64,000 bases of DNA from an uncultured Candidatus Saccharibacteria bacterium (GTDB taxonomy: Bacteria > Patescibacteriota > WWE3 > UBA101185 > UBA10185). The translations under genes were made by a program, and so were the position numbers. This document shows, one piece after another, positions 1-13,312 of this stretch. How positions within the stretch are numbered: the first letter of the stretch is position 1; each line of letters begins with the position of its first letter. The stretch covers positions 66,252 through 130,251 of the forward strand of contig CAYLMU010000001.1 of NCBI GenBank assembly GCA_964385105.1, written 5' to 3'. A model generated the notes under the pieces. That model was not told the DNA's origin, did no database searches, and saw only the letters and a program-made list of their open reading frames with translations.

Positions 1-858
1 ATCATCAGATTCTACACCCTCGCTTAAAGATGCACTAAAATCTCCGGATTTAGCTTGTAAAATAGCCTGTTGCTTAGAGCTTAAATCGGCAATTACTTTT
101 TCGAGTTCTGCTAAGTCCTCTCCAAGCTCACCTTCAGCCTCAGCCAAAACATTCAAATCTCCTTCTACAATACTTTTTTCACTTTCAAGTTGTGTTATTG
201 CAGCAATTAGTTGTGACTGGGCATCTTCAAGTTCTTTTTTTAGGTCTTCAGCTTCTTTTTTATCGCGCTCATAAGCATCAATTTCTGTATTTAATACTCC
301 AATTAAGCGCAAAGCCTCACGGTTAAAAGCTTTTCCGTACATATATGTTAATGTAGCCTGCTGAAATCCGTTTGCTTCATCTGTACCTGTACCGCCAGAC
401 GGAGAAGCGAAGAAAAGCTCAAGATCGCTTATAAAGCTTCTTTTTGAATAGGTTCTTATAACTTTGTTTCTAAAAGATAATTTTTCATCAAGTTCGCCAT
501 TTTTTTCAACTAAAGCATTTTTAATTTCTTCAAGCGCTTTATTCATTGAATCAATCTCAGCCTGTATGCCGTTAAGTTCGGCTTGGGTCACACTTAATGA
601 AGAAAGTAGATTGTTAATTTTTCCGGTTACACTGTTTTTTTGTGACCTAATGTCTGAAAGTTTTTTGCTAGTGGATTCATATTTTTGCTGATTTTTACCA
701 ATCTGCTCTTCGTAACATTTAGCTTTATCGTCAAGGTCCGATATATCTTTGCATGGGTCATCGGCATAAGCACTGTGTGTTTTTGCCAGTAAAAGAATTG
801 CTGTTAGAACAAGTGTAAGTGGTATGAGTGTTGGCAGGTGGGTTTGAGGGTTTTTCAC
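1..858 (-). CDS. Partial CDS (5' part in window; C-terminus lies beyond window start). Secreted coiled-coil protein, PcsB/EnvC-like N-terminal region.
   Basis: Minus-strand frame is open from ~858 (GTG) to position 1 with no stop. The N-terminus VKNPQTHLPTLIPLTLVLTAILLLAKTHSAYA looks like a signal peptide, followed by ~250 aa of heptad-like charged coiled coil. The ORF track omits it because it is not closed within the window. Confidence 0.5.
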   Translation of the reverse strand, partial: MKNPQTHLPTLIPLTLVLTAILLLAKTHSAYADDPCKDISDLDDKAKCYEEQIGKNQQKYESTSKKLSDIRSQKNSVTGKINNLLSSLSVTQAELNGIQAEIDSMNKALEEIKNALVEKNGELDEKLSFRNKVIRTYSKRSFISDLELFFASPSGGTGTDEANGFQQATLTYMYGKAFNREALRLIGVLNTEIDAYERDKKEAEDLKKELEDAQSQLIAAITQLESEKSIVEGDLNVLAEAEGELGEDLAELEKVIADLSSKQQAILQAKSGDFSASLSEGVESDD

Positions 859-881: not shown

Positions 882-990
882 TTCTAAAGTTATGGATGGT
901 AAAGAAGGTTTAACTTCTGCTATAATTGGTGTAGTTTTTGTGTTACTATCTATTTGAATTCTACGTGTAGTAATAGCAAATTTAAGCAAT
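882..990 (+). pseudogene. Remnant 3' fragment of a VirB2-like pilin gene: a diverged duplicate of 1852-1960.
   Basis: The first 50 bp are identical to 1852-1901 at an offset of exactly 970 bp; the remaining ~60 bp are ~63% identical. In the pilin frame it reads SKVMDGKEGLTSAIIGVVFVLLSI then a stop; there is no start codon. Confidence 0.4.
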
Positions 991-994
991 CATT

Positions 995-1963
995 ATGATA
1001 AAGAAAAAAATTACCATATTTTTTATTTCAGCATTTATACTTACACTTGCTCATAAAAATTATGCTTTAGGAGCAGCAGCATTAAATATTAATCCAACAT
1101 CATGTAACAGTGATACCGGTGTAAAGTTTACCTGGCATGCATCAGGGAGCATTTTGAACCAGATTTATTTAGCGTGGGACTTTTGTGTTCCTACTATACA
1201 GGGAGGTACTTTATCAAACGGATGTGATAGCAAAGACGCTAGAAAAATTGGTGACGGAGATTTTTCAGTTGCTGATTCAGATGAGTATGCTGCCCAATGT
1301 GGAAATCAGGTTACACAATGTACAGGGTCAATAGATGGACCTAATTCAGGAATCGATGACGGACAGGATGTTTATTTAACTGTTACATACAATCTCGTTG
1401 ACGGTGGTAAGTATTATACAGACACACTACACTCACATTGTGAATTTACTACTAACACCGCATGCGTTGATGTAGGAGAACCGTGTGGAATGAACGTAAC
1501 ATGTTGCGGTGAATTTTTAGTATGCGATTATCGACAAGATAATACTTGTGAAGTTATTACAAACGTTTTAGCAGGAGAAGCAGGTGACCCCTGCGGGCCA
1601 GACCGTGCACCTTGTGAATCTGGTTCATGTGTTGAAGGTGTATGCCAAGGCACTGACCCCGATAAAGATCGTGATACTGATAAAAAATTTGATCCCACAT
1701 TATGGAGACAAGATTATGACGGTAAGATTGTTGACTTTGAAACCCTCCTTCAAACTATATATGGCTTATTACTTCCTATTGGCATTGGGCTCATTGCCAT
1801 ACCCCTTATTATCATCAACGGATACAAAATTATGACTAGCCAAGGTGATCCTTCTAAAGTTATGGATGGTAAAGAAGGTTTAACTTCTGCTATAATTGGT
1901 TTGCTATTTATTTTATTATCTATTTGGATAATTAGAATAGTAATTGCAAACTTCTTGCAATAG
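995..1963 (+). CDS. Pilin-fusion protein: signal peptide, a ~230-aa Cys-rich (about 19 Cys) extracellular domain, and a C-terminal VirB2/TrbC-like two-helix pilin module.
   Basis: N-terminus MIKKKITIFFISAFILTLAHKNYALG looks like a signal peptide. Cys-rich motifs include CGMNVTCCGEFLVCDY and PCGPDRAPCESGSCVEGVC. The C-terminus has two hydrophobic helices split by the loop SQGDPSKVMDGKEG, as in the downstream pilin paralogs. Confidence 0.6.
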   Translation: MIKKKITIFFISAFILTLAHKNYALGAAALNINPTSCNSDTGVKFTWHASGSILNQIYLAWDFCVPTIQGGTLSNGCDSKDARKIGDGDFSVADSDEYAAQCGNQVTQCTGSIDGPNSGIDDGQDVYLTVTYNLVDGGKYYTDTLHSHCEFTTNTACVDVGEPCGMNVTCCGEFLVCDYRQDNTCEVITNVLAGEAGDPCGPDRAPCESGSCVEGVCQGTDPDKDRDTDKKFDPTLWRQDYDGKIVDFETLLQTIYGLLLPIGIGLIAIPLIIINGYKIMTSQGDPSKVMDGKEGLTSAIIGLLFILLSIWIIRIVIANFLQ

Positions 1964-1985: not shown

Positions 1986-2366
1986 ATGCTTAAAAGAGTA
2001 CATGCCCAAGTACCAACAGACATTCAAGACCCGTTGGCCGGACGTTACACCTCGCTTGCTCAAATATTTGGACTTATTACAAATATAGTTATTGGTGTAG
2101 GTGTAGCTTTAACAGTAATATTTTTGATTTTAGCAGGTATACAATACATCACCGCCAAAGGTGATACCAAAGCTGCTGATGCTGCAAGGTCGTCATTAAC
2201 AAATGCTATTATAGGTTTTGTTATTGTTATTGGTGCTATAACTATTAAAATTATTGTACAAAACTTATTAAATGCAGATAACGTAAGTATAGATGGCGTA
2301 ACACCAGGTTCGGGAGGAGGAAGTGGTGCACCACCAATACCACCACCACCAATGCCCAAGCCTTAA
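1986..2366 (+). CDS. VirB2/TrbC-like pilin paralog 1, with a Gly/Pro-rich C-terminal tail (GSGGGSGAPPIPPPPMPKP).
   Basis: RBS AGGAG lies upstream. It has two TM helices separated by a charged loop (KGDTKAADAARSS). The core is near-identical to 2416-2772. Confidence 0.6.
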   Translation: MLKRVHAQVPTDIQDPLAGRYTSLAQIFGLITNIVIGVGVALTVIFLILAGIQYITAKGDTKAADAARSSLTNAIIGFVIVIGAITIKIIVQNLLNADNVSIDGVTPGSGGGSGAPPIPPPPMPKP

Positions 2367-2415
2367 TTTAGGTATACAAATTAGTTTATTAAAGTAAAGG
2401 AGGTGTAATCAAAAA

Positions 2416-2772
2416 ATGTTAAAACTTATAAAACAAGCACATGCCCAAACACAAGGACAAGTACAAACATCTGTTACAGACCCATTAGGAACTAGATTTG
2501 GAAGTGGTACCACATTAGCAAACATATTTGGACTTATAATTAACATAGTTATTGGTGTAGGTGTAGCTTTAACAGTAATATTTTTGATTTTGGCAGGTAT
2601 TCAATATATTACAGCACGAGGTGATACCAAAGCTGCTGATGCTGCAAGGTCGTCATTAACAAATGCTGTAATTGGATTTATTATAGTTCTGGGCGCATTG
2701 ACAATCAGGTTTATTGTACAGAACTTATTAAATGCAGATAACGTAAATATTGAGCAGGTAACAGACTTCTAG
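2416..2772 (+). CDS. VirB2/TrbC-like pilin paralog 2.
   Basis: Strong RBS AAAGGAGG at 2394-2401. About 145 bp (2524-2667) are ~88% identical to 2064-2207, with two perfect 47-50 bp blocks. Confidence 0.6.
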   Translation: MLKLIKQAHAQTQGQVQTSVTDPLGTRFGSGTTLANIFGLIINIVIGVGVALTVIFLILAGIQYITARGDTKAADAARSSLTNAVIGFIIVLGALTIRFIVQNLLNADNVNIEQVTDF

Positions 2773-2804
2773 TAAAGTGCTGCAACGAAAAGAGCGTAAT
2801 TATT

Positions 2805-3125
2805 ATGGATTATATTAACAATTTAAGTAGTAGCCAGGATCCCAGTAGTGGAATGACTGCTTCAACAATGGGAGAATTAATGGGAGTTGTTTTAAACATT
2901 CTCATGGGTTCTGCTATTGCTATAAGCGTCATATCCACTGGGATTGCCGGTATAAAATATATAACAAGCAAAAGCGACCCCAAGGCAAGGGACAGCGCAA
3001 AAAATGCTTTAACGTATGCAGTTATTGCTTCTATTCTCGCCATTGGGGCTTTTGCCGTGAAATTAGCAGTATTAAGTGCTTTCGGAGCCAACGGTGTAAT
3101 TACTAATGGAGTTCCCAATTTTTGA
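2805..3125 (+). CDS. VirB2/TrbC-like pilin paralog 3 (diverged).
   Basis: Same architecture: helix, KSDPKARDSAKNALTYAVI loop, helix. Confidence 0.5.
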   Translation: MDYINNLSSSQDPSSGMTASTMGELMGVVLNILMGSAIAISVISTGIAGIKYITSKSDPKARDSAKNALTYAVIASILAIGAFAVKLAVLSAFGANGVITNGVPNF

Positions 3126-3582
3126 TATACTTAAAAAAAGCTTTATTGCAATTTTATTTGCAACCGTGGTAATCAGTATACAAAACCCGGCTTATGCACA
3201 ATCAGCAGATTGTGTTGGGTATGATCCTAATGACGTAGCATCATTAGCACAAATTGTTTGCCCTGCTGCAAGGTTAGTTAACATTTTATTATACTTTGCT
3301 GGAGCTGTATTTGTTGCAATGATATTTGTAGGTTCTATTAAATATGCAATGTCGCTTGGTGATCCAAAAGGTGCAATAGGTGCAAATCAAACATTAACCT
3401 ACGCTGTAATCGGGCTTATAGCAGTATTGGGAGTATTTTCTATCCTTAATATTATCGCACATCTTTTAGGCCTTACAAATATAGAAAGTTTGAATGTTTT
3501 CAAAACTATTCAAACTAGAATATGTGATTTTCTCATTAGTAATGGTGTCGTAGAGGACGGTGCTAAGATTGCCGGTTGTTAA
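3106..3582 (+). CDS. VirB2/TrbC-like pilin paralog 4, with signal peptide and a longer C-terminal extension.
   Basis: Signal-like N-terminus ending AYAQ; the pilin core is LGDPKGAIGANQTLTYAVIGL flanked by hydrophobic helices. It overlaps the previous gene by 20 nt. Confidence 0.5.
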   Translation: MEFPIFDILKKSFIAILFATVVISIQNPAYAQSADCVGYDPNDVASLAQIVCPAARLVNILLYFAGAVFVAMIFVGSIKYAMSLGDPKGAIGANQTLTYAVIGLIAVLGVFSILNIIAHLLGLTNIESLNVFKTIQTRICDFLISNGVVEDGAKIAGC

Positions 3583-3583
3583 A

Positions 3584-4060
3584 TCAATACGGAACAGGCT
3601 CGTTAGAAATATCTGGGGGCGTGTTGAGATACACATAGTTGATTGTTTCGTTTAGATAATTTCCGTTTACACTTCTTAGAGCAGTTATTTTTAATGTATA
3701 TTCCTGATGATCTTCCCATCCCATGCCTCTTGGAACAAACTTCACTATGTTTGGGTTACTTTCATCGTTTACTATGGAAAATTCCATGTTTGGTTCTATT
3801 GTATATCTAATGGAATTGGATATTATCGGTTCAGAAAATTCAAACCACAAAATTTCATAATCACTCAAAGACTGTGAGCTTCGTTCTGGTGGTGTAATCG
3901 CAATCAAACTTAATTCGGACTCTTTCACAGTATAAGGAGTTTCAATGTCATTATACCTATTAAAATCAATAAAATACGCAATAAATACTAATATTAAGAT
4001 TATAAGCACTATTAAATAGCTTTTGTTGCCTTTAATGAATATGATAAGTTTTTTTGTCAT
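3584..4060 (-). CDS. Bitopic membrane protein: N-terminal TM anchor plus a ~120-aa beta-rich ectodomain. A speculative T4SS assembly factor (VirB8-like role).
   Basis: N-terminal hydrophobic segment YLIVLIILILVFIAYFI. The functional call rests on context only. Confidence 0.4.
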   Translation of the reverse strand: MTKKLIIFIKGNKSYLIVLIILILVFIAYFIDFNRYNDIETPYTVKESELSLIAITPPERSSQSLSDYEILWFEFSEPIISNSIRYTIEPNMEFSIVNDESNPNIVKFVPRGMGWEDHQEYTLKITALRSVNGNYLNETINYVYLNTPPDISNEPVPY

Positions 4061-4093: not shown

Positions 4094-7000
4094 TTATTTA
4101 CATATGTAATCTTCCGGTCTCGCAGGAATAAAATCACCAGGCCCATTAGGTAGAGCCATTTCGAAGTGAACATGTGTGTTATTTCCCCAATCATATAATT
4201 CAGCTGCAGCATCTCCCGGTTTTTTTTCTCCGGTGTAAACAGTTCCTACATGCAATAAAACTAAGATTACTTGTGGATTTCCACGCACGTCAAGTCCCGT
4301 TACAGTAGTAACATTTCCCACATTGCTTGCCCGGGGAGAGGAGACTTGCCAAGTGGTAATACCAGTCATTTCAGGCAAAAAAATCGTGCCACACCCTAGA
4401 GGATGTACATCTTCAGCATACCCATAATATTCGGATTCAGGTGGTGTATTCAAACACTTATTATTTGGTGCCTCGGTGGCAATAGGACTCTTCGGATATG
4501 GCGAAACATATGCAGGTATCGGAAAGCATTGGCCTAAAGAACCGGGTATAGTACTCCAATAAAGATTTGACCCGTGCCTACTAGCTTGTTCCTCATTATT
4601 AATGTAAGATCTTTGCCAAACAGTATAACCTTCTGCAAAGACACACCCGTTAAGACTCTTAACATCTACACTGTGGAATCCACAACGTCTATATTCGCCA
4701 CCACCTTCACTTCTTATGTCACCACCACCAACACCACCACCAATTCCAGCAATAGGATTCCTTTGGGGAATTGCCGTTGTAAAAGCTCCGCCCAACAATA
4801 ATATTAATAAAATAAGACACCCCACAGGTATCCCAACACCGTAAAGCAACGTTTTTGTCATGTAATCATAAGTTTTATCCCATGATTCAATCAGTTGACT
4901 AAAATCACCTTTGAAAAACGCTTTGAACGTTCCTTGTGCGGTATCCATAGTCTTAATCAACACTACATACATTACTTTTCTTACTATTGGTACTAAAAAT
5001 TCAACCAGCGGAGAAGCCACCCCGGCAGTTGCTCCTTCCGCTATTGAAGCTAACAAACGTGCAGTAACCCGGGAAATACCGTCCACAACTCTGTTTGCCA
5101 CAATGCTTTTAATATTAGAAGCAGAACTAACGAGTCGGCCTGCTCGTGTTGTGGTAAACCAATGCTGAAGGTTATTAAGTTTTTCATTAATCTTTTCAAG
5201 GATACCTACGTATCGACGCGAAGGTTTCAATGCACCCCTGTTGTCGACTTTGGTATAAAAAATTCTTTTAATAAAACCCGCCATAATTCCGGGGTCGGCA
5301 ATATCAGCAGCACTAAAACCAAATTTACCGTGATTTTTTGACATCCAATCTTTGAATTTCTGCAAGTTAAAATAAATGGCATCAAATTCGGCTCTCTTAA
5401 ACGGTAAAGTGCCATATCTAGCCGTTAAACTGGCATATAAGGCGTCTAATCCTGCGGTATCACCAATACTCACTCCAGCATGAAGTAATTCTTCGAATGC
5501 TCTAATATCCAACTTTCCGGTGGATAAAGCACTTCCAATGTCTTCAATGATTTTAAAGTGTGAGCCAGCAGTAACATTTCTTAATGCAAAATTTCTTCCT
5601 CCTGCTTCAAAATTTACGTTAAATTTATGCTCAAGCGGTTTAAGTAAAAGAGATCCTAATCCGCCGGCCGTACTTCCCGTGAGTTTAAATCCCCAAAAAA
5701 ATGCGATTCCATTGTCGTCTGCGTAATCTTTGTTTACAACAAAACCTAACCGATGTACTCGGGTCAAAAATTTATTTGACCAATAGGCAGGTGTTAAAAC
5801 TTCAATCCTGTTTTTAAATCTGGGCCACAAATAGGTACTTAATAAGCGCTTTCCTTCAAAAGCTCGTAAAAGCTCCTCTGCAGCAGCATAATCTCTTTCC
5901 TGCTCCAATCTTCTAAAAATAGTTCTTAGTTTTATAATATTATCTGTACCTGTAAAAGCGTCGTTTTCCTCGTTTCGTATATCACGCTCCATATCTCGTA
6001 AAAGTCTTCTATTAACACTCCTGCTAAAAGGATCCCCACCAGCAAGACCTCCTCTGCCAAATATATTTCCTCTACTGCCCACATTTACTATGCTGTTTCT
6101 TGCTTCCGCTATATTTTTAGTTAGTTCGGCTCTAAGAACCAATGACGGTTGCGCTGTTCCCAATCCATCAACCTTTCTTGCAATATCTGCGACATCGCTA
6201 CCGACAGCAACAAATTTATTTAAATCTTCCAAGTAAACTTTGAATGGGTTTATGACTGAGCGTCCTAATCTACGCTGTATAGCTAAACCTTCTGGTGTGT
6301 TATTAAGTTGTTGTAAGAAAGTTTCTGCCTCTCCAATTTTTGCCCTTATAACATTTAAATCAGCTGTGTTTGGGGCATCTTTTATATTTCCCGTGAGTAA
6401 AAATGTATCAAGTTTTTCTTGGAGCGAAGTTTTTTTACCGCCGCTTACTAAGCCTTCATAATCTACAGCCTTTTGTAAAGATGAAATCTTCTCATGAAGC
6501 TCATTTTTTAGTAAAAACATTTGAGCTTCAGGAGTATACGAGGCAGGCGTGACATTTTTTTCTAAATCAGCTTTAAGAGCCTTTGCTGCCGAAGATATAA
6601 CTGCATCATACTTATTTTCCCGTAGAATAACGTTTCGTGAATTTACTTGAAATGATAATATACTATGTTTTAACTTCCTGTATTCACCAATGTCGGGATG
6701 ATCCAAACTTAAGGGGTTGGCAGCAGCATGTACCGCACCGGCAGCTCCAGATCCGTCTAATCTTTGAGCCAACGAGGTTGTTGCCTCATGTTGCAAAGCA
6801 ACATCAATCTCATCAAACTTTTCCTGAAGCCTGCGAATTGGTCTCAGTCTGGACTTATTTCTTGCAGTCCTGTAGATATCAACATCACTCAATACATTTT
6901 CCCACAACTGCTCCCTATTTAAAGTGTCAAAATCGTCCCAGTCGGCTATTGCTTTAAACCAATCCTTTACTGTTTTTTTAAATTGCTCTCCCGGGTCACT

Positions 7001-7330
7001 TAACCAGTCGTTAGGATTTAAGCTAATTGAAATACCAACGGCACCGGGCAAGTCTTCCATAGCCTCGGGTCCGTACAGTTCTAGGGCTTCCGGACTGACT
7101 TCCTTAGTTGGTTTAATTTGAGCCTTTAGTGAACTTTCAAAATCTTTTTTAATTCTTTCAATAAACCATGCCGGAATATCTGTATCTTTTTCGAATGTAT
7201 TAAAAAATTTGCCAAAATCCAATAAATCCAAATCAGGGTTACCTGTAAAACGCCGGCCTCCTGAAGGTCTTTTATATAAAGGTCTGTCTCCTGGGTAATA
7301 CCCGAGATAAAACGGATTTGAACTTGCCAT
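4094..7330 (-). CDS. Large (1078-aa) protein: a ~800-aa N-terminal domain with no signal peptide, a single TM, a Gly-rich linker, and a C-terminal papain-fold cysteine peptidase (CHAP / NlpC-P60 superfamily) cell-wall hydrolase domain.
   Basis: TM segment VGIPVGCLILLILLLGGAFTTAIP. Candidate catalytic Cys lies in GQCFPIP or LGCGTIF, and the His in the VILVLLHVGTVYTG motif. Gram-positive T4SSs carry CHAP/NlpC hydrolases (PrgK/TcpG/TraG-like). Confidence 0.55.
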   Translation of the reverse strand: MASSNPFYLGYYPGDRPLYKRPSGGRRFTGNPDLDLLDFGKFFNTFEKDTDIPAWFIERIKKDFESSLKAQIKPTKEVSPEALELYGPEAMEDLPGAVGISISLNPNDWLSDPGEQFKKTVKDWFKAIADWDDFDTLNREQLWENVLSDVDIYRTARNKSRLRPIRRLQEKFDEIDVALQHEATTSLAQRLDGSGAAGAVHAAANPLSLDHPDIGEYRKLKHSILSFQVNSRNVILRENKYDAVISSAAKALKADLEKNVTPASYTPEAQMFLLKNELHEKISSLQKAVDYEGLVSGGKKTSLQEKLDTFLLTGNIKDAPNTADLNVIRAKIGEAETFLQQLNNTPEGLAIQRRLGRSVINPFKVYLEDLNKFVAVGSDVADIARKVDGLGTAQPSLVLRAELTKNIAEARNSIVNVGSRGNIFGRGGLAGGDPFSRSVNRRLLRDMERDIRNEENDAFTGTDNIIKLRTIFRRLEQERDYAAAEELLRAFEGKRLLSTYLWPRFKNRIEVLTPAYWSNKFLTRVHRLGFVVNKDYADDNGIAFFWGFKLTGSTAGGLGSLLLKPLEHKFNVNFEAGGRNFALRNVTAGSHFKIIEDIGSALSTGKLDIRAFEELLHAGVSIGDTAGLDALYASLTARYGTLPFKRAEFDAIYFNLQKFKDWMSKNHGKFGFSAADIADPGIMAGFIKRIFYTKVDNRGALKPSRRYVGILEKINEKLNNLQHWFTTTRAGRLVSSASNIKSIVANRVVDGISRVTARLLASIAEGATAGVASPLVEFLVPIVRKVMYVVLIKTMDTAQGTFKAFFKGDFSQLIESWDKTYDYMTKTLLYGVGIPVGCLILLILLLGGAFTTAIPQRNPIAGIGGGVGGGDIRSEGGGEYRRCGFHSVDVKSLNGCVFAEGYTVWQRSYINNEEQASRHGSNLYWSTIPGSLGQCFPIPAYVSPYPKSPIATEAPNNKCLNTPPESEYYGYAEDVHPLGCGTIFLPEMTGITTWQVSSPRASNVGNVTTVTGLDVRGNPQVILVLLHVGTVYTGEKKPGDAAAELYDWGNNTHVHFEMALPNGPGDFIPARPEDYICK

Positions 7331-7393: not shown

Positions 7394-8818
7394 ATGCTCG
7401 GTAAAACATTTATCAAAGTCGGAATAACATTTACTTTTTCTTTATTATTAATAATATTGGCAACATCTAAAACTTATGCTCAAGATTCAGTATGTACCCC
7501 AAGTGAGGGTTTATACACAAGAATCGTCCAGGCACTTGATAACCTGGACATTAGAAGAACAACGGTTAACTTTTTAGTCTCGGCTGTGACAGATGTTCCA
7601 CTTCAAGCTGCCGCCAACGGAACACAGGATGACATTTTTCACTGTATGGGTTATATAGCAACTATGAACGCTGGAGGTAATCAGGGAGGAAGCACCGGTG
7701 CTGATGTATTGGCAAAATTGGGTTTATCTACTGATGGCTGTACCCCTGATGAGGATTACTGTGAAGCTTTGTTTAATACTTATGAGGATGTAAGGATACA
7801 ATCCGGAGCCAACCCGGCTTCCGTGGCCTTTTATAATAAACGGGCAAATAGTCGTGTGTCAGGCAGCCTTGTGGGACTTGTAAATATGGCTGAAAATGCT
7901 ACTTATCAGCCGGTTCCAGTGAACCTTGCTTTTTATTTTAACAAAGAAGCACAAAAGTTACCTTTTGTGGGCACAGCGTTTGCACAAACTGCAGGAGACT
8001 TTACAGGGCCGTTTTTAAACTTAACATACGATCTCTGGAAAATATTTAGAGATGTAGCATACGGAGTTATGGCAGTAATCATGATTATAGTGGGCATCAT
8101 GATTATGACAAGAAAAAAGTTGAACCCTCAAACAGCGGTAACTATGCAGTACGCTCTTCCCCGAATAATAATAGCTTTAGTTTTAATAACTTTTAGCTAC
8201 GTAATAGGAGCCACCATTGCTAGTACAGCCTGGGTTCTAAAATTTAGCGCAGATAAAATTATTATACAACTCTTTATAGATTCTCAGGCTCAAAGTACAC
8301 AACACGTAAGCTTCATGTATGCAGCCGGCTTTATGGTGACTTTAGTTATTGGGGTTATTATGATGTTTACAAGCGGTGTGGGAGTAGTGTATGCGGCACT
8401 TTTCATTGTTGGATTTATATTAACTTTAATAACTTTCCTTATCGTATTTCTTAAAATGTTGATGCTGTATTTACGCATGTTAATTAATATAATTGCGGCG
8501 CCTCTAACGTTCACCATGGCAGCGCTCCCCGGTAAAGATGATATGATGATGAACTGGTTTAAACAGATGCTTGTATATACTTTATCAATTTTTGGAATGA
8601 CCGCTGTCATATCAATTACAAGAATTGTAAGTGCTGTTATGCTGTTAAATATAGCGGATAATGGTGGTAACACTATATTTGACGGTGGAAGGGGAGCAGG
8701 AGCTTTCTTAGTCTTTGGCCCGATATTACTTTTCATTATTCTAATATACGGATTGAATACTGCCAGAAAATTACCAAACAAAATCGAAGCCGCCATCATG
8801 GGTCCCAAAAAGCGCTAA
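7394..8818 (+). CDS. VirB6/TrbL-like polytopic membrane protein: signal peptide, a ~200-aa extracytoplasmic domain, and 5-6 TM helices.
   Basis: Signal peptide ending TYAQ, then multiple long hydrophobic helices in the C-terminal half. Assignment rests on T4SS context and topology. Confidence 0.45.
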   Translation: MLGKTFIKVGITFTFSLLLIILATSKTYAQDSVCTPSEGLYTRIVQALDNLDIRRTTVNFLVSAVTDVPLQAAANGTQDDIFHCMGYIATMNAGGNQGGSTGADVLAKLGLSTDGCTPDEDYCEALFNTYEDVRIQSGANPASVAFYNKRANSRVSGSLVGLVNMAENATYQPVPVNLAFYFNKEAQKLPFVGTAFAQTAGDFTGPFLNLTYDLWKIFRDVAYGVMAVIMIIVGIMIMTRKKLNPQTAVTMQYALPRIIIALVLITFSYVIGATIASTAWVLKFSADKIIIQLFIDSQAQSTQHVSFMYAAGFMVTLVIGVIMMFTSGVGVVYAALFIVGFILTLITFLIVFLKMLMLYLRMLINIIAAPLTFTMAALPGKDDMMMNWFKQMLVYTLSIFGMTAVISITRIVSAVMLLNIADNGGNTIFDGGRGAGAFLVFGPILLFIILIYGLNTARKLPNKIEAAIMGPKKR

Positions 8819-8887: not shown

Positions 8888-10621
8888 ATGCCCATTAACG
8901 ATGTACAAAAAACCAATAAACAACACGCTGTACCTCAAAACATAATGGATGTTGAATTCAAAATAATAGGGGATCTTACTATGCGGCAGTTTTTTTACCT
9001 TTTGGTTTTTTTTGGATTTGCATATTCTATTTTTACTTTGTATAACGGTTTTCTTAAATGGCCATTAATTTTATTTTTAGTATGTGCAGGGTTGGCATTT
9101 GCCTTTTTGCCAATAGAGGAGAGAAGTCTAGATCAATGGGTTGTTAATTCATTTAGGGCCATTTATAAAGACACACAATACGTATGGCGTAAAACCCCTG
9201 AAATACCTCCGGCATTTTCGTTTGAAAATATGAGTGTTGTTAAACAAGAATTAATTACTTTAACACCTACATCAAGTAGAAGAAAGCTTGAAGAATTTTT
9301 AGAAGCTCAAACAGATAAAACCGTTATCGACCCTTTGGACATTCCGGAAGTTTCTTATATAAAAATGGTTAGACAGGGGTTTAAAAATGCCGCGCCGGTA
9401 ATAGAAGTGGAAGGTGAGGTTGAACCAACATTTCCGGCATATGATGAGTCTGCCAAAAATCAGGCACAATCTTCAGAAGAACCAACACAAAACGTTCCTG
9501 TGCAAGAAGTGCCACTACAAACCCCGTCAACATCTACACCTGCACCTATACAACCGGAACCTGCTAAACAATCCATATCCACTGACACACCAAAACAAGA
9601 TCAGCCACAACAAAAACCCACAAAACCTCCTGAAGAGAAAAAGCACCATCACCCATCAATAAAACTTCCAAAACTTCCTCATGTACCACGTCCGCTATTG
9701 CCAAAACATGTAGATGAACCTATTGAGGTATCAAAAGGGCCATTCCTTGCACCGATTACGCCCGATCAGCACTCAGGCCGAAAATTCACAAGTTTATTAC
9801 CAAAACAAGGGGAAATTATCTTGCCAATCAGAGGAGAAACGGTAATACAAACTACGGAAGAGGCGGAAATTGAAGAAGATATTGAAGAAAAAGCAGAACA
9901 ATTAAGAAAACTTTTATCTCATATACGACAAACCGAAAATATTCCTGAAACCACAAGAATTGAAAGCCAAATTGAAGAGAAATCTATAGACATAAAACCA
10001 GATGAAAAAGAAGCAATACAGCCCGAAGTTCAAGACACACTCGAGCAATTAAAAAGAGACAATGAAAGATTAAAAAAAGAAATTGAACAGTTAAAACGCG
10101 AAATAACCAAACCTCAAACATCAACCGAAAGGTCTGAGAAAATTACAACGTTAAAGCGTCTTGAACACGAACAGCATGAAAAAGAAGAGGCATATTCTTT
10201 GATTAAAAATAAACTTTCAAACATCCAGGAAAAAATATTTGTAAAACGTCAACCTGAATCTGAAAATATAAGTAATGAAAATGACGTACAGGAATGGAGT
10301 ACGCCTTCTAATGCAGTTGAACCTACATATGCTAAAATGAAACCCTTAAACGAAACACCGAATTTATTATCGGGTGTAGTTGTTGACCCGGCAGATAAAA
10401 GACTTGAGGGAATAATTTTAATAGTTAAAAATAACAAAGACGAGCCGGTTAGAGCTTTAAAAACAAATCAAACCGGACAATTTAGCATAAGCACACCGTT
10501 AGCTAATGGAGTTTATACTGTTGAAACAGATAAATCGAAACGAACTAACTATACCTTTGATATAATTAAAATCGTTACAAAAGGAGAGGTAATCCCTCCT
10601 ATAGAAATAAAAGGAAAATAA
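8888..10621 (+). CDS. PrgI/VirB3-like two-TM N-terminal domain fused to a Pro/Gln-rich linker, a coiled coil and a C-terminal beta-sandwich (carboxypeptidase-regulatory-like) domain.
   Basis: The N-terminal motif IIGDLTMRQFFYLLVFFGFAYSI, followed by a second TM, resembles the PrgI family. Also present: a low-complexity PTKPPEEKKHHHPSIKLPKLP region, a coiled coil LEQLKRDNERLKKEIEQLKREI, and a C-terminal GVVVDPADKRLEGIILIV beta domain. Confidence 0.45.
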   Translation: MPINDVQKTNKQHAVPQNIMDVEFKIIGDLTMRQFFYLLVFFGFAYSIFTLYNGFLKWPLILFLVCAGLAFAFLPIEERSLDQWVVNSFRAIYKDTQYVWRKTPEIPPAFSFENMSVVKQELITLTPTSSRRKLEEFLEAQTDKTVIDPLDIPEVSYIKMVRQGFKNAAPVIEVEGEVEPTFPAYDESAKNQAQSSEEPTQNVPVQEVPLQTPSTSTPAPIQPEPAKQSISTDTPKQDQPQQKPTKPPEEKKHHHPSIKLPKLPHVPRPLLPKHVDEPIEVSKGPFLAPITPDQHSGRKFTSLLPKQGEIILPIRGETVIQTTEEAEIEEDIEEKAEQLRKLLSHIRQTENIPETTRIESQIEEKSIDIKPDEKEAIQPEVQDTLEQLKRDNERLKKEIEQLKREITKPQTSTERSEKITTLKRLEHEQHEKEEAYSLIKNKLSNIQEKIFVKRQPESENISNENDVQEWSTPSNAVEPTYAKMKPLNETPNLLSGVVVDPADKRLEGIILIVKNNKDEPVRALKTNQTGQFSISTPLANGVYTVETDKSKRTNYTFDIIKIVTKGEVIPPIEIKGK

Positions 10622-10622: not shown

Positions 10623-11321
10623 ATGCCCATGATTAAAGCTACTACACAACAACATCTCGATATTGAAGACATTAAAGACAACATGGTTATTTTAAAAAAC
10701 GGGGCTGTTAGTGTAGTTCTTGAAACAACAGCCGTTAACTTTGACCTGTTATCCGAAATTGAACAAGACGCTATGATTGCAGCATTTTCTATGTTGTTAA
10801 ACTCAATATCGTTTCCAATTCAGGTTGTTGTGAGATCAAAAAGACTTGATATAACAAAATATCTTGAAAAAGTGCATAGGGTAGAGCAAAAAATAACCGA
10901 CCCGCTTCTTAAAATCCAGGCTCAATATTACCGCAAATTCGTACAGGAAGTTATTGAAAAAAATGATGTATTAGATAAAAAATTTTATGTGGTTATAAGC
11001 TATGGAGGCTCAGGTACGGTACAAACAGGCAAAAACCCGTTTGACTGGGTTTTGGTTTTGTTTGGTCTGCACAACCGTCGCACAAATGTAGACGTGGAAA
11101 GTGTTTTGCAAAAAGCACGTACAGATTTGGGGCCAAAAATTGACCACGTTTCTGCGGAATTTAACAGACTTGGAGTAAAAACCCGACAATTGAGCACACA
11201 AGAGTTGGTTGAATTATACTTTGATATATACAACCCAACAACGCTACACGGCCAAAGAATAAGAACAAGTGTAAGTGATTATAAAACAGCAATAGTAAAT
11301 CCTGCTATAGTTGAGGAATAA
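10623..11321 (+). CDS. VirB4 N-terminal-domain-like protein (232 aa): either a separate ORF or the split 5' part of VirB4.
   Basis: The motif HLDIEDIKDNMVILKNGAVSVVLETTAVNFDLLSEIEQDAMIAAFSMLLNSISFPIQVVVRS resembles the extreme N-terminus of Gram-positive VirB4 proteins. Its stop lies 2 nt before the next ATG, in the -1 frame. Confidence 0.45.
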   Translation: MPMIKATTQQHLDIEDIKDNMVILKNGAVSVVLETTAVNFDLLSEIEQDAMIAAFSMLLNSISFPIQVVVRSKRLDITKYLEKVHRVEQKITDPLLKIQAQYYRKFVQEVIEKNDVLDKKFYVVISYGGSGTVQTGKNPFDWVLVLFGLHNRRTNVDVESVLQKARTDLGPKIDHVSAEFNRLGVKTRQLSTQELVELYFDIYNPTTLHGQRIRTSVSDYKTAIVNPAIVEE

Positions 11322-11323: not shown

Positions 11324-13312
11324 ATGAAAATACCTGCAGTAACTTTATTTAAAAAAAAGCATAAAGAACAACCTGATACTCAAGCACAAGCACAAGTCAC
11401 AGAACCTGCAAATCAAAAAAAGCCTGCTGAAGTTTTGGCTGAAGGAATGATTAACGTAAAAGACATTATTGCGCCGCCGGCAATTGAAGTTGATTTTAAT
11501 TTTTTAAGGATAGGCAATACTTATTACAGAACTTTGTTTGTATCAGGTTATCCAAGGTTTGTGGGCGCCAACTGGTTATCGCCTGTGATTAACTTTGACC
11601 ACTCTCTTGATCTTTCAATGTTTTATTATCCTGTTGAATCAAAAGGAATTCTTGATGACTTAAGAAGAAAAATTACCGAAATGGAAGCTACAAGCATGTC
11701 TAATAGAGAAAAGGGTAAAATTAGCGACCCTACAGTAGAAATTGCATTAGGGGATGCTAAAGCTTTGCAGGAACAATTGGTAAAAGGTGTTGAGAAATTC
11801 TTTCAGTTTTCTTTTTATATCACTATACCCGCCGACTCGCTTGATGAACTTGAAAAAGTAACTAAGAAGCTTGAAGCCACACTCGGCTCACTTTTGTTAA
11901 TTTCAAAAACATCTACATTACAAATGGAAGACGCTTTTCAATCAACAATTCCCGCTGCCATGGATAAAATGCTTATCACAAGAAACATGGATACTACCAG
12001 TTTAGCTACAACATTTCCATTCACATCATCCGACCTTACATCAGACGAAGGAATAATGTACGGAATAAACAGGCACAATGGGTCATTAATTGTTTTTGAC
12101 AGGTTTTCGCTTGAAAATGCAAATAGTGTAGTATTTGCTAAATCCGGTGCCGGTAAATCATACATGATAAAACTTGAAGCATTGCGATTGATGGTATTTG
12201 GAGCAGAGATACTAATTATCGACCCCGAAGAGGAATACAGAGCATTGTGTGATGCTGTAGGGGGTAATTATATTAGCTTCGCAGCAAACTCCCCATCAAA
12301 AATAAATCCTTTTGACCTATCGGGAATTGCAACTGAAGGTGAAAACGAATTGGGTCAAAAACTTTTATCTTTACACACACTATTTAAGCTAATGTTGGGC
12401 GATCTTAATCCAACAGAAGAAGCGTTACTTGACCGTGCTTTAATGGAAACTTACAGAATAAAAGGTATAACAACCGATCCTGATACACAACGTTCAAAAG
12501 AGCCTCCAATTATGGAAGATTTATATAAAGTGCTGTTAGGAGCTGAAGAACCCGAAGCAAGAAGTATGGCTGAAAGACTTGAAAAATACATTAAAGGTTC
12601 GTTAACAGGTATATTTGACAATCAGTCCACAGTTAACCTCGGCAGTAGAATGACGGTATTTTCAACACGTAATCTGGAAGATATATTAAAACCCATTGCC
12701 TACTACATAATTCTTGATTTTGTGTGGACAAGAATTAAAAAGGATTTAAAAAAGCGTATATTAATTGTTGAAGAAGCATGGTCTTTGCTTCAAGACGAGG
12801 ACAGTGCAAGATTTTTATATGGTGTAGCAAAAAGAGCTAGAAAATACTATTTAGGTCTTACAACCATTACCCAGGACGTCCAGGACTTTCTAAGTTCTGA
12901 TTTTGGGAAAGCTATTGTTACAAACTCATCCATACAAATTTTATTAAAACAGCATCCGGCCTCAATTGACCAAATAGCCGAAACATTTTACCTATCTGAA
13001 GGAGAAAGAAGACTTTTACTATCTGCAGATAAAGGTGAAGGATTATTTTTTGCAGGTTCAAATCACGTTTCAGTTAAAGTAAAGGCTTCTGACGCTGAAC
13101 ATAAATTAATAACTACAAACCCGCAGGAAATTCTTGAAATGAGAAATGAACAGATTAATAAAGCTTCTGTTGATTTGCAAAAACCTGTTTACAAACCGTT
13201 TGAGCGCTTTGAGAGTAGCAAATATGATGAAATCGAAACACCACAGCAAAACCCGCAAACAAACAATGAACCAAACACTTTTCCTCAAAATCCCGAAGAA
13301 CAGTTAGCTTAG
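11324..13312 (+). CDS. virB4: VirB4/TraE-family T4SS ATPase.
   Basis: Walker A FAKSGAGKSY, a Walker B / DEAW-like motif ILIVEEAWSLL, and an N-terminal VirB4 signature IAPPAIEVDFNFLRIGNTYYRTLFVSGYPRFVGANWLSP. Confidence 0.75.
   Translation: MKIPAVTLFKKKHKEQPDTQAQAQVTEPANQKKPAEVLAEGMINVKDIIAPPAIEVDFNFLRIGNTYYRTLFVSGYPRFVGANWLSPVINFDHSLDLSMFYYPVESKGILDDLRRKITEMEATSMSNREKGKISDPTVEIALGDAKALQEQLVKGVEKFFQFSFYITIPADSLDELEKVTKKLEATLGSLLLISKTSTLQMEDAFQSTIPAAMDKMLITRNMDTTSLATTFPFTSSDLTSDEGIMYGINRHNGSLIVFDRFSLENANSVVFAKSGAGKSYMIKLEALRLMVFGAEILIIDPEEEYRALCDAVGGNYISFAANSPSKINPFDLSGIATEGENELGQKLLSLHTLFKLMLGDLNPTEEALLDRALMETYRIKGITTDPDTQRSKEPPIMEDLYKVLLGAEEPEARSMAERLEKYIKGSLTGIFDNQSTVNLGSRMTVFSTRNLEDILKPIAYYIILDFVWTRIKKDLKKRILIVEEAWSLLQDEDSARFLYGVAKRARKYYLGLTTITQDVQDFLSSDFGKAIVTNSSIQILLKQHPASIDQIAETFYLSEGERRLLLSADKGEGLFFAGSNHVSVKVKASDAEHKLITTNPQEILEMRNEQINKASVDLQKPVYKPFERFESSKYDEIETPQQNPQTNNEPNTFPQNPEEQLA

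What the first reader, a model, noticed from the sequence alone, without database searches (positions are those of the whole stretch)
995..1963. VirB2-like pilin fused to a ~230-aa secreted cysteine-rich domain (candidate tip adhesin)
The C-terminal ~80 aa of this gene have the same helix-loop-helix pilin module as the four downstream paralogs. The N-terminal part is a signal-peptide-led domain with ~19 cysteines in EGF/knottin-like spacing (CGMNVTCCGEFLVCDY; PCGPDRAPCESGSCVEGVC). A disulfide-rich ectodomain covalently attached to a conjugative-type pilin subunit is not a described architecture. It could mark a pilus tip or host-binding subunit.
Basis: seen in the sequence. Interest (0 to 1): 0.7.

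Follow-up and report, generated by a model that had tools for sequence, protein, structure and literature searches.

The report
Secretion-system pilin carrying a variable cysteine-rich head
An ultrasmall parasitic-type bacterium (Patescibacteria) encodes, as the first gene of its type IV secretion pilin operon, a pilin with a fast-evolving, cysteine-rich outer domain of about 205 residues grafted in front of it, which is a plausible but untested host-recognition part of a machine known to be essential in one cultivated relative.

Summary
ORF 995-1963 (+) encodes 322 aa: a Sec-type signal peptide, an ectodomain with 16 Cys (not ~19; 7.3% Cys against 0.49% background), then a helix-loop-helix that passes Pfam PF18895 (T4SS_pilin) above its curated cut-off. 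Four short PF18895 paralogs follow, then VirB6-like, PrgI/VirB3, TrsD/TraC-like and VirB4 genes, then dnaN and dnaA. This is the chromosomal Patescibacteria T4SS already described in the literature.

The fusion is not an artefact or a one-off. In about 25 of 31 related loci the pilin array starts with one long pilin (196-626 aa, 4-36 Cys), followed by 1-5 short pilins with 0-2 Cys.

The closest relative found has a 130-aa leading pilin that aligns at 72% identity with aa 237-322 and lacks the ectodomain. So the domain is an insertion between the signal peptide and the mature pilin. It is an orphan: every other gene of the locus finds orthologs, and it finds none.

Best reading: a modular VirB2-type minor pilin that displays a hypervariable disulfide-rich head for host contact. 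Function is inferred, not shown. The N-domain structure could not be predicted. I found no paper describing this architecture.

Verdict: new variant of a known kind.

The parts
995..1963 (+). Long 'leading' pilin gene, 322 aa: signal peptide, Cys-rich ectodomain, linker, PF18895 pilin module
   Evidence: ORF. PF18895 31.7 bits against cut-off 26.6. The exact protein is in NCBI on a 468,751-bp contig.
995..1069 (+). Predicted Sec signal peptide (aa 1-25, MIKKKITIFFISAFILTLAHKNYAL)
   Evidence: Read from the sequence: KKK n-region, a hydrophobic core of about 14 residues, and small residues near NYA/LGA. No signal-peptide predictor was available, so this is an inference.
1070..1690 (+). Orphan Cys-rich ectodomain (aa 26-232), 16 Cys; an insertion relative to the closest relative's 130-aa leading pilin
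   Evidence: Cys positions and enrichment. No homolog in 5.8 billion proteins or 1.84 billion representatives. No similarity to the N-extensions of 37 pilin-module homologs. Insertion boundaries. AlphaFold2 pLDDT 30-60, not interpretable.
1463..1549 (+). Six-Cys module aa 157-185, C-x6-C-x5-CC-x5-C-x7-C (knottin-like framework by spacing only)
   Evidence: The same C-C-CC-C-C framework occurs in 14 of 62 long-pilin N-extensions (about 11 distinct after discounting duplicate entries), against a shuffled mean of 2.8 and maximum of 8 in 200 shuffles.
1592..1645 (+). Four-Cys module aa 200-217 (C-x6-C-x4-C-x4-C; ...SGSCVEGVC)
   Evidence: Short matches to SGSCVKGFC in P0026 and SGICIDGYC in P0013.
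1646..1702 (+). Charged linker aa 218-236 (QGTDPDKDRDTDKKFDPTL)
   Evidence: Sequence. pLDDT below 50 for aa 223-241.
1703..1960 (+). Pilin module aa 237-322: two hydrophobic helices joined by the loop KIMTSQGDPSKVMDGKEG
   Evidence: 72% identical over 89 columns to the mature part of P0045. 58-66% identical to P0002-P0004. AlphaFold2 pLDDT 87.5. Hydrophobic segments 250-281 and 292-322.
882..983 (+). Relic of the 3' end of a second leading-pilin gene: 84% identical to 1852-1953, including 49 identical bases, with TGG changed to a TGA stop
   Evidence: Compare locus L005, which has two intact long pilins in tandem.
1986..2366 (+). Short pilin type A, copy 1 (126 aa), preceded by a consensus Shine-Dalgarno AGGAG; candidate major pilin
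   Evidence: PF18895 33.9 bits. Shine-Dalgarno. Orthologs at the same array position in L003, L007, L009 and L032.
2416..2772 (+). Short pilin type A, copy 2 (118 aa), a recent duplicate with an AGGAGG Shine-Dalgarno
   Evidence: 82% DNA identity between 2040-2303 and 2500-2763. PF18895 35.7 bits. Shine-Dalgarno.
2805..3125 (+). Short pilin type B (106 aa)
   Evidence: PF18895 25.8 bits, just below the cut-off. Positional orthologs.
3106..3582 (+). Short pilin type C (158 aa), with a Sec signal peptide and a conserved Cys pair (C...QIVCP) before helix 1
   Evidence: PF18895 17.4 bits. Orthologs and the conserved Cys pair.
3584..4060 (-). Conserved 158-aa locus gene of unknown function
   Evidence: Syntenic orthologs at 25-45% identity in L003, L007, L009 and L032. 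No Pfam hit.
4094..7330 (-). Conserved 1078-aa locus protein. The same position in L005 holds a protein with CHAP/C39-like domains, so it may be a cell-wall hydrolase or scaffold.
   Evidence: No Pfam or NCBIfam hit. Orthologs. L005 annotation.
7394..8818 (+). 474-aa polytopic membrane protein, VirB6-like by position only
   Evidence: Sequence. No family hit. Orthologs at 31-59% identity.
8888..10621 (+). PrgI (VirB3-like) protein with a C-terminal extension
   Evidence: PF12666 at 40 bits.
10623..11321 (+). TrsD/TraC-like protein, resembling the N-terminal part of VirB4
   Evidence: NCBIfam TrsD and VirB4_plasma below their thresholds. PF26593 on the orthologs. 90% identical to the L032 ortholog.
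11324..13312 (+). VirB4-type ATPase
   Evidence: PF19044 TraG P-loop at 111 bits.
1..858 (-). N-terminal part (signal peptide plus coiled coil) of the SpoIID-domain protein that flanks the array in relatives; runs off the left edge of the window
   Evidence: Translation. 66% identical to the N-terminus of the 608-aa SpoIID protein of L032.

Best explanation
The gene encodes a modular VirB2-family (Pfam PF18895) pilin. It is the conserved first subunit of the pilin operon of a chromosomal, origin-proximal type IV secretion system in a Patescibacterium.

Shown:
- A Cys-rich module of about 205 aa sits between a Sec-type signal peptide and the N-terminus of an otherwise ordinary leading pilin of about 90 aa.
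- The module is lineage-specific. It is absent from the nearest relative found, and it cannot be aligned with the equivalent modules of other relatives even though every other gene of the locus is conserved.

Inferred mechanism:
- The signal peptide exports the module. Its 16 cysteines form up to 8 disulfides outside the cell.
- The two hydrophobic helices insert with the basic SQGDP loop on the cytoplasmic side, as in VirB2 and TraA.
- When the T4SS extracts pilins from the membrane to build its filament or conduit, this subunit enters in low copy number. It probably enters first, so it ends up at the distal end.
- The N-terminus of VirB2-type pilins lies on the outer face, opposite the lumen-facing loop, so the module would point outward and contact the host cell surface.
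- It would thus act as the adhesin or host-specificity determinant that VirB5 or PrgB supplies in other T4SSs.
- The short type-A pilins that follow have consensus ribosome-binding sites and would form the bulk of the filament.
For: Identity:
- PF18895 above the curated cut-off.
- Confident helix-loop-helix.
- Two hydrophobic segments with a K-rich loop between them.
- Location in a locus with VirB4, PrgI/VirB3 and TrsD-like genes next to dnaN and dnaA, as described for Patescibacteria (PMC12102498).

Real and recurrent:
- 38 homologs of 194-500 aa, all with a C-terminal PF18895 and a Cys-rich N-extension.
- In my census of 31 loci, the array starts with one long pilin in about 25. L005 has two in tandem. 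Then 1-5 short pilins follow.

Insertion:
- The closest locus, L032, has proteins 45-90% identical to the window's. Its leading pilin is 130 aa, aligns with aa 237-322 at 72% identity, and has no ectodomain.

Hypervariable:
- In syntenic loci L003, L007, L009 and L005, almost every other gene finds its ortholog at 22-78% identity, while the ectodomain finds nothing.
- It also finds nothing in 5.8 billion or 1.84 billion proteins.

Low stoichiometry:
- There is no Shine-Dalgarno within 25 nt upstream in the window, L001, L003 and L031, while the next gene carries AGGAG(G).

Extracellular disulfides are plausible:
- Cys is enriched 15-fold and only outside the membrane helices.
- Conserved Cys pairs also occur in the exported N-segments of the short pilins.

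Topology:
- In solved conjugative pili the inter-helix loop faces the lumen, and in the cyclic H-pilin the two termini are joined to each other (PMC12037004).

Relevance:
- The pilin array is essential in S. epibionticum, and no PrgB-type adhesin was found in Patescibacteria (PMC10633639; PMC12102498).
Against: - No experiment shows that PF18895 proteins of Patescibacteria polymerise. The literature treats the pilus as a possibility only.
- The pilin assignment rests on a sequence profile and on gene context. The profile of the modules finds no solved VirB2 or TraA structure by sequence, and fold searches return only generic helical hairpins.
- The ectodomain fold is unknown (pLDDT 30-60), so no binding site or lectin-like fold can be pointed to.
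- No disulfide-forming enzyme is encoded in the 64-kb window.
- The Shine-Dalgarno argument is indirect, and it fails in another clade where no pilin gene has one (L004, L006).
- The locus census was fished with the long-type pilin module, so the frequencies are biased.
- The nearest relative does without the ectodomain, so the domain is not needed for the core function.
Confidence: 0.55

Rival explanations
1. The pilin-like hairpin is only a membrane anchor or docking element. The protein stays in the cytoplasmic membrane as a surface-displayed Cys-rich receptor or adhesin associated with the T4SS base, and it is never polymerised.
For: No pilus has been demonstrated for these systems. Gram-positive-type T4SSs normally lack pili. 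A 205-aa head on every subunit is sterically awkward for a VirB2-type lattice (my inference). The hairpin fold is generic.
Against: The module belongs to an orthologous pilin type that in the nearest relative is a plain 130-aa pilin. It is co-oriented with four other pilins, separated from them by short gaps or overlaps. The module is 47-78% conserved across syntenic loci, far more than a simple two-helix anchor would need, which suggests specific subunit contacts.
Confidence: 0.2
2. The N-domain is a large pro-region or a separate secreted product. After export, a protease cuts near the charged linker (aa 218-236) and releases a soluble Cys-rich protein (effector, toxin or signalling molecule) together with an ordinary short pilin.
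For: VirB2, TrbC and TraA propilins are processed at both ends (established knowledge; the H-pilin example is). A charged, low-confidence linker precedes the pilin core. The mature core matches a stand-alone short pilin. Knottin-like frameworks are typical of secreted toxins and inhibitors (my knowledge).
Against: No conserved cleavage motif is visible at the junction across the family. In the other large clade the last Cys of the ectodomain lies only about 20 residues before helix 1, within a conserved C..x..TA(L/I)G.I...P..F motif and without a linker, which suggests a rigid attachment. The window encodes no dedicated protease next to the array.
Confidence: 0.12
3. It is the major structural subunit. 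Every subunit of the filament carries the head, giving a thick, fully decorated fibre.
For: It is the first gene of the operon. Its pilin module is the most conserved in the array (47-78% across syntenic loci against 22-62% for the short pilins).
Against: It has no Shine-Dalgarno, whereas the next pilin has a consensus one. There are only one or two long pilins per array. The nearest relative has no head at all. A solved conjugative pilus is about 90 A across, and by my own estimate the outer surface available per subunit is too small for a 22-kDa domain unless the domain is held well away from the shaft.
Confidence: 0.05
4. Artefact: two unrelated genes were joined by mis-assembly or by a sequencing frameshift, helped by the nearby 49-nt repeat.
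For: A diverged copy of the gene's 3' end lies 970 nt upstream, and repeats can confuse assemblers.
Against: The repeat lies at the gene's 3' end, not at the junction between domain and pilin module at about nt 1700. The same order (signal peptide, Cys-rich domain, pilin) is found in dozens of independent assemblies from four sources. A 969-nt open frame in 35% GC DNA is not expected by chance.
Confidence: 0.02

Closest known systems
VirB2-like pilin arrays of Patescibacteria T4SS (Wang et al. 2023, PMC10633639; Quinonero-Coronel et al. 2025, PMC12102498; review PMC12857230)
   Same: Same Pfam family (PF18895). Same locus type: PrgI/VirB3, TrsD, VirB4 and a VirB6-like gene, no relaxase seen, next to dnaA. 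Same tandem array of 2-11 divergent pilins. The array is essential in S. epibionticum.
   Different: Those papers treat the pilins as small proteins and do not mention long, Cys-rich, array-leading forms. Their supplementary table lists one ML1 pilin (SEML1_0015) with PF18895 at residues 115-180, which implies an N-extension of about 110 aa, and the text passages retrieved by my term searches do not comment on it. Here the leading pilin is 322 aa with 16 Cys. I also find that the array positions are orthologous types rather than interchangeable paralogs.
Canonical conjugative pilins VirB2, TrbC, TraA and TrhA (Pfam PF04956 and relatives; solved pili such as 5LEG and 8EXH)
   Same: A hydrophobic helix-loop-helix of about 70-90 aa with a polar or basic loop, made as a precursor with an N-terminal signal sequence, and encoded with VirB3, VirB4 and VirB6.
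   Different: The long pilin does not hit PF04956, and its paralogs hit it only below threshold. The module profile has no sequence match to any solved pilin. Known pilins are about 7 kDa when mature and carry no extra domain. The host here is a monoderm with no outer-membrane channel to pass through.
VirB5, TraC and CagL pilus-tip adhesins of Gram-negative T4SSs, and PrgB-type adhesins of Gram-positive T4SSs
   Same: The proposed job is the same: a low-copy, target-cell-binding component at the distal end or surface of the T4SS.
   Different: There is no sequence or family similarity. VirB5 is a separate soluble protein that caps the pilus, and PrgB is anchored to the cell wall. Here the binding module would be covalently part of a pilin. 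No PrgB homolog was found in Patescibacteria.
Modular type IV pilins of type 4 pili, for example Streptococcus sanguinis PilB (PMC8179133)
   Same: The design principle is the same: a pilin module fused to a functional (adhesive) module, incorporated as a minor subunit in a monoderm.
   Different: The filament superfamily is unrelated. Type 4 pilins have a class III signal peptide and an N-terminal alpha-1 helix, with the extra module grafted at the C-terminus. Here a VirB2-type hairpin carries the module at its N-terminus.
Knottin / inhibitor-cystine-knot mini-proteins
   Same: One module (aa 157-185) has the six-Cys C-C-CC-C-C framework with loop lengths in the usual knottin range. The framework recurs in other long pilins more often than in shuffled sequences.
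   Different: This is spacing only. No profile hit was found, there is no reliable structure, and the disulfide connectivity is unknown.
Mycoplasma ICE 'Mbov_0395 family pilin-like conjugal transfer protein' (NCBIfam NF045849)
   Same: A small two-helix pilin-like protein of a monoderm MPF-FATA-type T4SS. The window's pilins give weak matches (17.7-21.3 bits).
   Different: The scores are far below the family cut-off of 40 bits, and that family is about 80 aa with no ectodomain.

Membership tests
Pfam PF18895 T4SS_pilin (VirB2-like pilins of Patescibacteria and others) | Match to the family profile at or above the curated gathering score | tested here: met
   31.7 bits against 26.6, aa 249-313, profile positions 6-67 of 71. 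The precomputed PF18895 annotation appears on the identical database protein P0001.
Pfam PF18895 T4SS_pilin (VirB2-like pilins of Patescibacteria and others) | Two long hydrophobic helices joined by a short polar loop | tested here: met
   AlphaFold2 gives H5-37 and H43-78 of the module with pLDDT 87.5. Hydrophobic segments 250-281 and 292-322.
Pfam PF18895 T4SS_pilin (VirB2-like pilins of Patescibacteria and others) | Encoded within a T4SS gene cluster (VirB4 plus VirB3/PrgI) | tested here: met
   PrgI, a TrsD-like gene and VirB4 lie 7-10 kb downstream in conserved synteny.
Pfam PF18895 T4SS_pilin (VirB2-like pilins of Patescibacteria and others) | Small single-domain protein of about 100-150 aa | tested here: not met
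   The protein is 322 aa with a 205-aa extra domain. This is the feature that makes it a variant.
Conjugative pilins proper (VirB2, TrbC, TraA) | Match to PF04956 (TrbC/VirB2), or sequence similarity to a pilin of solved structure | tested here: not met
   The long pilin has no PF04956 hit. Paralogs reach E 0.006-0.04, with 14.5-17.2 bits against a cut-off of 27.9. The module profile against PDB sequences finds nothing relevant.
Conjugative pilins proper (VirB2, TrbC, TraA) | Fold specifically similar to solved pilins | tested here: inconclusive
Conjugative pilins proper (VirB2, TrbC, TraA) | Polymerises into an extracellular, lipid-containing tube assembled by the T4SS | not testable with these tools
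   This needs filament purification, cryo-EM or cryo-ET. The literature calls it a possibility only.
VirB5-type tip adhesin | Homology to the VirB5/TraC family | tested here: not met
   No Pfam or NCBIfam hit other than the pilin families. The resemblance is only in the proposed function.
Knottin / cystine-knot | Six Cys in a C-C-CC-C-C framework | tested here: met
   aa 157-185, CVDVGEPCGMNVTCCGEFLVCDYRQDNTC.
Knottin / cystine-knot | Knotted I-IV, II-V, III-VI disulfide connectivity and fold | not testable with these tools
   AlphaFold2 pLDDT 31-39 for aa 151-190, and no profile hit.
Modular type IV (type 4 pilus) pilins | Class III signal peptide, N-methylation motif and a hydrophobic alpha-1 N-terminus | tested here: not met
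   No PF07963 hit. The N-terminus is an ordinary Sec-type signal and the hydrophobic helices are C-terminal.

The most novel reading that the evidence does not exclude
Patescibacterial T4SSs may build a heteromeric filament from positionally conserved pilin types. In that filament the leading VirB2-type pilin would be a swappable platform, onto which lineages graft hypervariable disulfide-rich heads that set which host cells the epibiont can plug into. This would be the first class of modular T4SS pilins. It would also replace VirB5 and PrgB adhesins in function, and would be made possible by the lack of an outer-membrane channel.
Probability: 0.35. Interest if true: 0.8.

Novelty: new variant of a known kind. 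Interest (0 to 1): 0.6.

Why it matters
Patescibacteria are a very large, mostly uncultured bacterial group that appears to live attached to other microbes. In the one species tested genetically, the T4SS and its pilin array are essential, yet their function is described as completely unknown. No adhesin has been found for this T4SS.

A pilin subunit that carries a rapidly changing exported head, present in many lineages and always first in the array, is a concrete candidate for the host-contact and host-range determinant. That gives experimenters a specific protein to label, delete or swap.

It also challenges the textbook view that VirB2-type pilins are always tiny single-domain proteins. 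It suggests that loss of the outer membrane relaxes the size limit on what a T4SS pilin can carry.

Tried and rejected
1. Structure of the N-domain. AlphaFold2 on the full protein with a 13-sequence alignment gave pLDDT 30-60 over aa 22-241, which cannot be used. The Foldseek search of that model against the PDB gave only noise.

3. Profile of 24 pilin modules against PDB sequences. The only hit was a designed repeat protein at E 0.05.

4. Homologs of the N-domain. The word-indexed search returned only the query itself. The exhaustive HMMER search returned the query plus P0039, a tandem-repeat artefact matching 22 residues. Local BLAST against 37 N-extensions gave nothing below E 0.1.

5. Length distribution of the family from a profile search. 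All 120 listed hits were 153 aa or shorter, and the long proteins already known to match were missing. The listing is evidently biased towards query-length proteins and fragments, so I did not use it for frequencies. It did reveal P0045.

The 10-sequence alignment worked.

7. Exact-protein look-up of the window's own protein returned no contig.

8. Rfam found nothing in the window.

9. The promoter and terminator scan around the array found fewer promoter-like sites than in shuffles and no plus-strand terminator between the pilin genes. It was not informative beyond being consistent with co-transcription.

10. Disulfide machinery. Pfam scans of about 50 window ORFs found no DsbA, VKOR or thioredoxin-fold gene. 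The rest of the genome was not available.

11. Cysteine parity. 22 of 34 N-extensions have an even Cys count, too weak to use as evidence.

12. The new CPR 'Pam' pilus (bioRxiv 10.64898/2026.03.03.709456) is a different system based on Ig-like domains and donor-strand exchange, so it is not relevant here.
Full report
**1. What is in the sequence**

ORF 995..1963 on the + strand starts with ATG and encodes 322 aa. The translation has four parts.
- An N-terminal Sec-type signal: MIKKKITIFFISAFILTLAHKNYALGAA.
- A hydrophilic region holding 16 cysteines, all between aa 37 and 217.
- A charged linker, QGTDPDKDRDTDKK.
- Two long hydrophobic stretches, aa 250-281 and 292-322, joined by the loop KIMTSQGDPSKVMDGKEG.

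The ectodomain has 7.3% Cys, against 0.49% in the other 50 proteins of the window (binomial P about 4e-14).

One six-Cys block, aa 157-185, has C-x6-C-x5-CC-x5-C-x7-C spacing, which is the knottin-type framework. A four-Cys block follows at aa 200-217. No Pfam family matches the N-domain at E<=1.

**2. Is the C-terminal part a pilin?**

Pfam PF18895 (T4SS_pilin) matches aa 249-313 at 31.7 bits, above its curated cut-off of 26.6. The four downstream ORFs also match it, at 33.9, 35.7, 25.8 and 17.4 bits. Three of them also hit TrbC/VirB2 (PF04956) weakly. NCBIfam gives only sub-threshold matches to the mycoplasma ICE pilin-like family NF045849.

AlphaFold2 predicts a confident helix-loop-helix, with pLDDT 80-88 in the full-length run and 87.5 for the module alone.

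Structure comparison cannot go further.
- Foldseek finds nothing at E<=0.001.
- A profile of 24 modules finds no solved pilin by sequence.

The pilin assignment therefore rests on the curated profile, the topology and the gene context. It does not rest on fold identity.

**3. Context**

Downstream of the five pilin genes lie:
- two conserved minus-strand genes of 158 and 1078 aa;
- a 474-aa polytopic membrane protein;
- a PrgI/VirB3-family protein;
- a TrsD/TraC-like protein;
- a VirB4 ATPase;
- then dnaN, a KH/R3H protein, yidC, rnpA and dnaA.

The rest of the window is housekeeping. GC content is 35.4%.

This is the origin-proximal, relaxase-less, MPF-FATA-like T4SS with VirB2-like pilin arrays described for Patescibacteria (PMC12102498). 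It is essential in Southlakia epibionticum (PMC10633639; review PMC12857230).

The nearest named relatives of the pilin module are MAGs labelled Saccharibacteria, WWE3, Levybacteria, Microgenomates and Shapirobacteria.

**4. The fusion is real and recurrent**

A search with the whole protein returned 38 proteins of 194-500 aa. All have PF18895 at the C-terminus and a variable, Cys-rich N-extension with a signal peptide. Over the 34 of these (the query among them) whose module I could locate, the median extension is 234 aa and the median Cys count is 16.5.

I then gathered gene neighbourhoods in two ways and ran my own ORF plus HMM census.
- Six homologs by exact look-up: L001, L003-L006 and L031.
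- 24 species-representative genomes: L007-L030.

The results were as follows.
- In about 25 of 31 loci the array begins with one long pilin of 196-626 aa with 4-36 Cys in the extension. It is followed by 1-5 short pilins of 96-198 aa, almost all with 0-2 Cys.
- L005 has two long pilins in tandem.
- Four to five loci have a leading pilin of about 141 aa with 2 Cys.

One caveat applies. The loci were retrieved with the long-type module, so they all contain that module by construction. Its position and copy number in the array were not imposed by the search.

An assembly join is thereby excluded.

**5. The head is an insertion and is the fastest-evolving part of the locus**

The profile search turned up P0045, whose module is the closest to the window's. 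Its locus, L032, is the closest relative found. Locus proteins are 45-90% identical, and the TraC-like protein is 90% identical.

The leading pilin there is only 130 aa: a signal peptide, about 25 residues, and the pilin module. It aligns with aa 237-322 of the window protein at 72% identity and has no Cys-rich domain. So aa 26 to about 232 of the window protein are an insertion between the signal peptide and the mature pilin N-terminus.

In the syntenic loci L003, L007, L009 and L005, almost every locus gene finds its ortholog at 22-78% identity. That includes each short pilin and the long pilin's own module. The ectodomain finds nothing.

The ectodomain also has no homolog in 5.8 billion clustered proteins or in an exhaustive HMMER scan of 1.84 billion representatives. 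The single extra hit there is a repeat artefact. It shows no similarity to the N-extensions of 37 pilin-module homologs.

What recurs is the style rather than the sequence. The C-C-CC-C-C framework occurs in 14 of 62 long extensions (about 11 distinct after discounting duplicate entries), against a mean of 2.8 and a maximum of 8 in shuffles.

**6. Hints about stoichiometry and array organisation**

The short pilins are positional orthologs rather than interchangeable paralogs.
- Type A is about 115 aa with a very short conserved leader ending in (H/Y/L)AQ.
- Type B is about 105 aa.
- Type C is about 160 aa with a Sec signal and a conserved C...QIVCP pair.

The window has type A duplicated, at 82% DNA identity.

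In the window, L001, L003 and L031, the long pilin has no Shine-Dalgarno within 25 nt of its start, whereas the type-A gene that follows has AGGAG(G). L005's type-A genes carry AGGAGG too, and its two long pilins have only a distant GAGGTG at -21. This fits a scarce leading subunit and an abundant type-A subunit. The argument is indirect, and it does not hold in a second clade that lacks Shine-Dalgarno motifs altogether.

No plus-strand terminator separates the pilin genes.

**7. A relic upstream**

Bases 882-983 lie between the divergently transcribed SpoIID-family gene (1-858, minus strand) and the long pilin. They are an 84% copy of the gene's last 102 nt, including 49 identical bases, with TGG changed to TGA.

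Together with the tandem pair in L005, this points to duplication and decay of leading-pilin genes at this position.

**8. Mechanism (inferred)**

- The signal peptide exports the head, and its cysteines oxidise outside the cell.
- The hairpin inserts with the K-rich SQGDP loop on the cytoplasmic side.
- In solved conjugative pili this loop lines the lumen. In the cyclic H-pilin the two termini are bonded to each other, so both lie at the same end of the hairpin (PMC12037004). From the helix-loop-helix geometry and my own knowledge of F-pilus structures, that end is the outer face.
- An N-terminal head would therefore be external.
- T4SS pili grow from the base. A subunit that enters first and in low copy ends up at the distal end with its N-terminal side pointing away from the cell.
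- A monoderm has no outer-membrane channel, which removes the size limit that would bar such a head in Gram-negative systems.
- No VirB5 or PrgB homolog is present, so this subunit is the obvious candidate for target-cell contact.

Every step after 'exported, membrane-anchored by a pilin hairpin' is inference. No one has yet seen a T4SS pilus in Patescibacteria.

**9. Rivals**

- Non-polymerising membrane-anchored surface protein (0.2).
- Cleaved pro-domain or secreted product (0.12).
- Fully decorated major subunit (0.05).
- Assembly artefact (0.02).

The evidence for and against each is given in the structured fields.

**10. Comparison with what is known, and novelty**

The pilin arrays and the T4SS are known. 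I found no mention of long, Cys-rich or modular T4SS pilins in any of the following.
- The three papers that describe the arrays.
- The perspective PMC11665869.
- Full-text searches.

The supplementary table of Wang et al. lists SEML1_0015 with PF18895 at residues 115-180. That implies an N-extension of about 110 aa in the essential array of the model organism, and none of the passages my term searches of that paper retrieved mentions it.

The nearest concept is the 'modular pilin' of type 4 pili (PMC8179133), which belongs to an unrelated filament family and carries its module at the other end.

I therefore rate this a new variant of a known kind. It is a VirB2-family pilin that fails the 'small single-domain' feature because a hypervariable exported module has been grafted onto it. 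As a class it is widespread in Patescibacteria.

**11. Verdict**

The architecture is real, and it is undescribed as far as the searchable literature goes. The tip-adhesin role is plausible and now better motivated, but untested.
- Interest 0.6. A T4SS or CPR specialist would find a 30-kDa VirB2-type pilin with a swappable head surprising, and it makes the host-recognition question testable. Everything functional is still inference, and the head's fold is unknown.

Noticed in passing
window 882-983: A decayed copy of the last 102 nt of the long-pilin gene sits in the intergenic region just upstream of it. It is 84% identical, includes 49 identical bases, and has an in-frame TGG changed to TGA. 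It looks like the remnant of a second leading pilin; locus L005 has two intact ones in tandem.
   Followed up: partly
L032 7409-7801 (protein P0045), compared with window 995-1963: The closest relative locus has a 130-aa leading pilin with no Cys-rich domain, while the rest of the locus is 45-90% identical. The head is therefore gained or lost between near relatives.
   Followed up: yes
window 1986-2366 and 2416-2772; type-A pilins in L001, L003, L005, L007, L008, L009 and L022: Type-A short pilins start with a very short conserved leader (M..K.. then (H/Y/L/F)A(Q) at residues 8-15), too short to be a normal Sec signal. This may be an unusual processing or insertion signal. In a Microgenomates-type clade the equivalent pilin starts with MK.LAL(S/T)(I/L)PG.
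   Followed up: no
window 1986-3582 and the arrays in L003, L007, L009 and L032: The pilins in the array are positional orthologs (types A, B and C conserved in order across genomes), not just divergent paralogs. This argues for a heteromeric assembly with distinct roles rather than antigenic variation. Type A is duplicated in the window (82% DNA identity).
   Followed up: partly
window 970-994, 1961-1985 and 2391-2415; the same positions in L001, L003, L005 and L031: The long pilin has no Shine-Dalgarno motif, while the next (type-A) pilin has a consensus AGGAG(G). This suggests very different translation rates within one operon. A second clade (L004, L006) has almost no such motifs before its pilin genes (only a GAGG at -6 before L004's long pilin).
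   Followed up: partly
window 3106-3582 and type-C or type-D pilins in many loci: The exported N-segments of short pilins carry conserved Cys pairs (for example C...QIVCP, CP...LC, ATL.C.P). Disulfide loops therefore seem to be a general feature of these T4SS pilins, yet no Dsb, VKOR or thioredoxin-fold gene lies in the 64-kb window.
   Followed up: partly
window 4094-7330 (-) and 3584-4060 (-): A 1078-aa protein and a 158-aa protein are conserved in every syntenic T4SS locus but match no Pfam or NCBIfam family. The 1078-aa protein has 7 Cys, all in its last 240 residues. The protein at the same position in L005 carries CHAP/C39-like domains, which suggests a cell-wall hydrolase role.
   Followed up: no
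window 8888-10621: The PrgI/VirB3-like protein is 577 aa, with a long coiled-coil-like middle and a CarboxypepD_reg-like C-terminal domain. That is far larger than a canonical VirB3. The extension is conserved in relatives, where the protein is 373-749 aa.
   Followed up: no
window 13309-17835: The T4SS ends directly against dnaN, with yidC, rnpA and dnaA following. It therefore sits at the replication origin, as Quinonero-Coronel et al. 2025 noted for part of the phylum.
   Followed up: partly
Supplementary table of PMC10633639 (S. epibionticum ML1, SEML1_0015): In the essential pilin array of the genetically tractable model, one pilin has its PF18895 match at residues 115-180, which implies an N-extension of about 110 aa. 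This is a possible experimental handle for testing what such extensions do.
   Followed up: no
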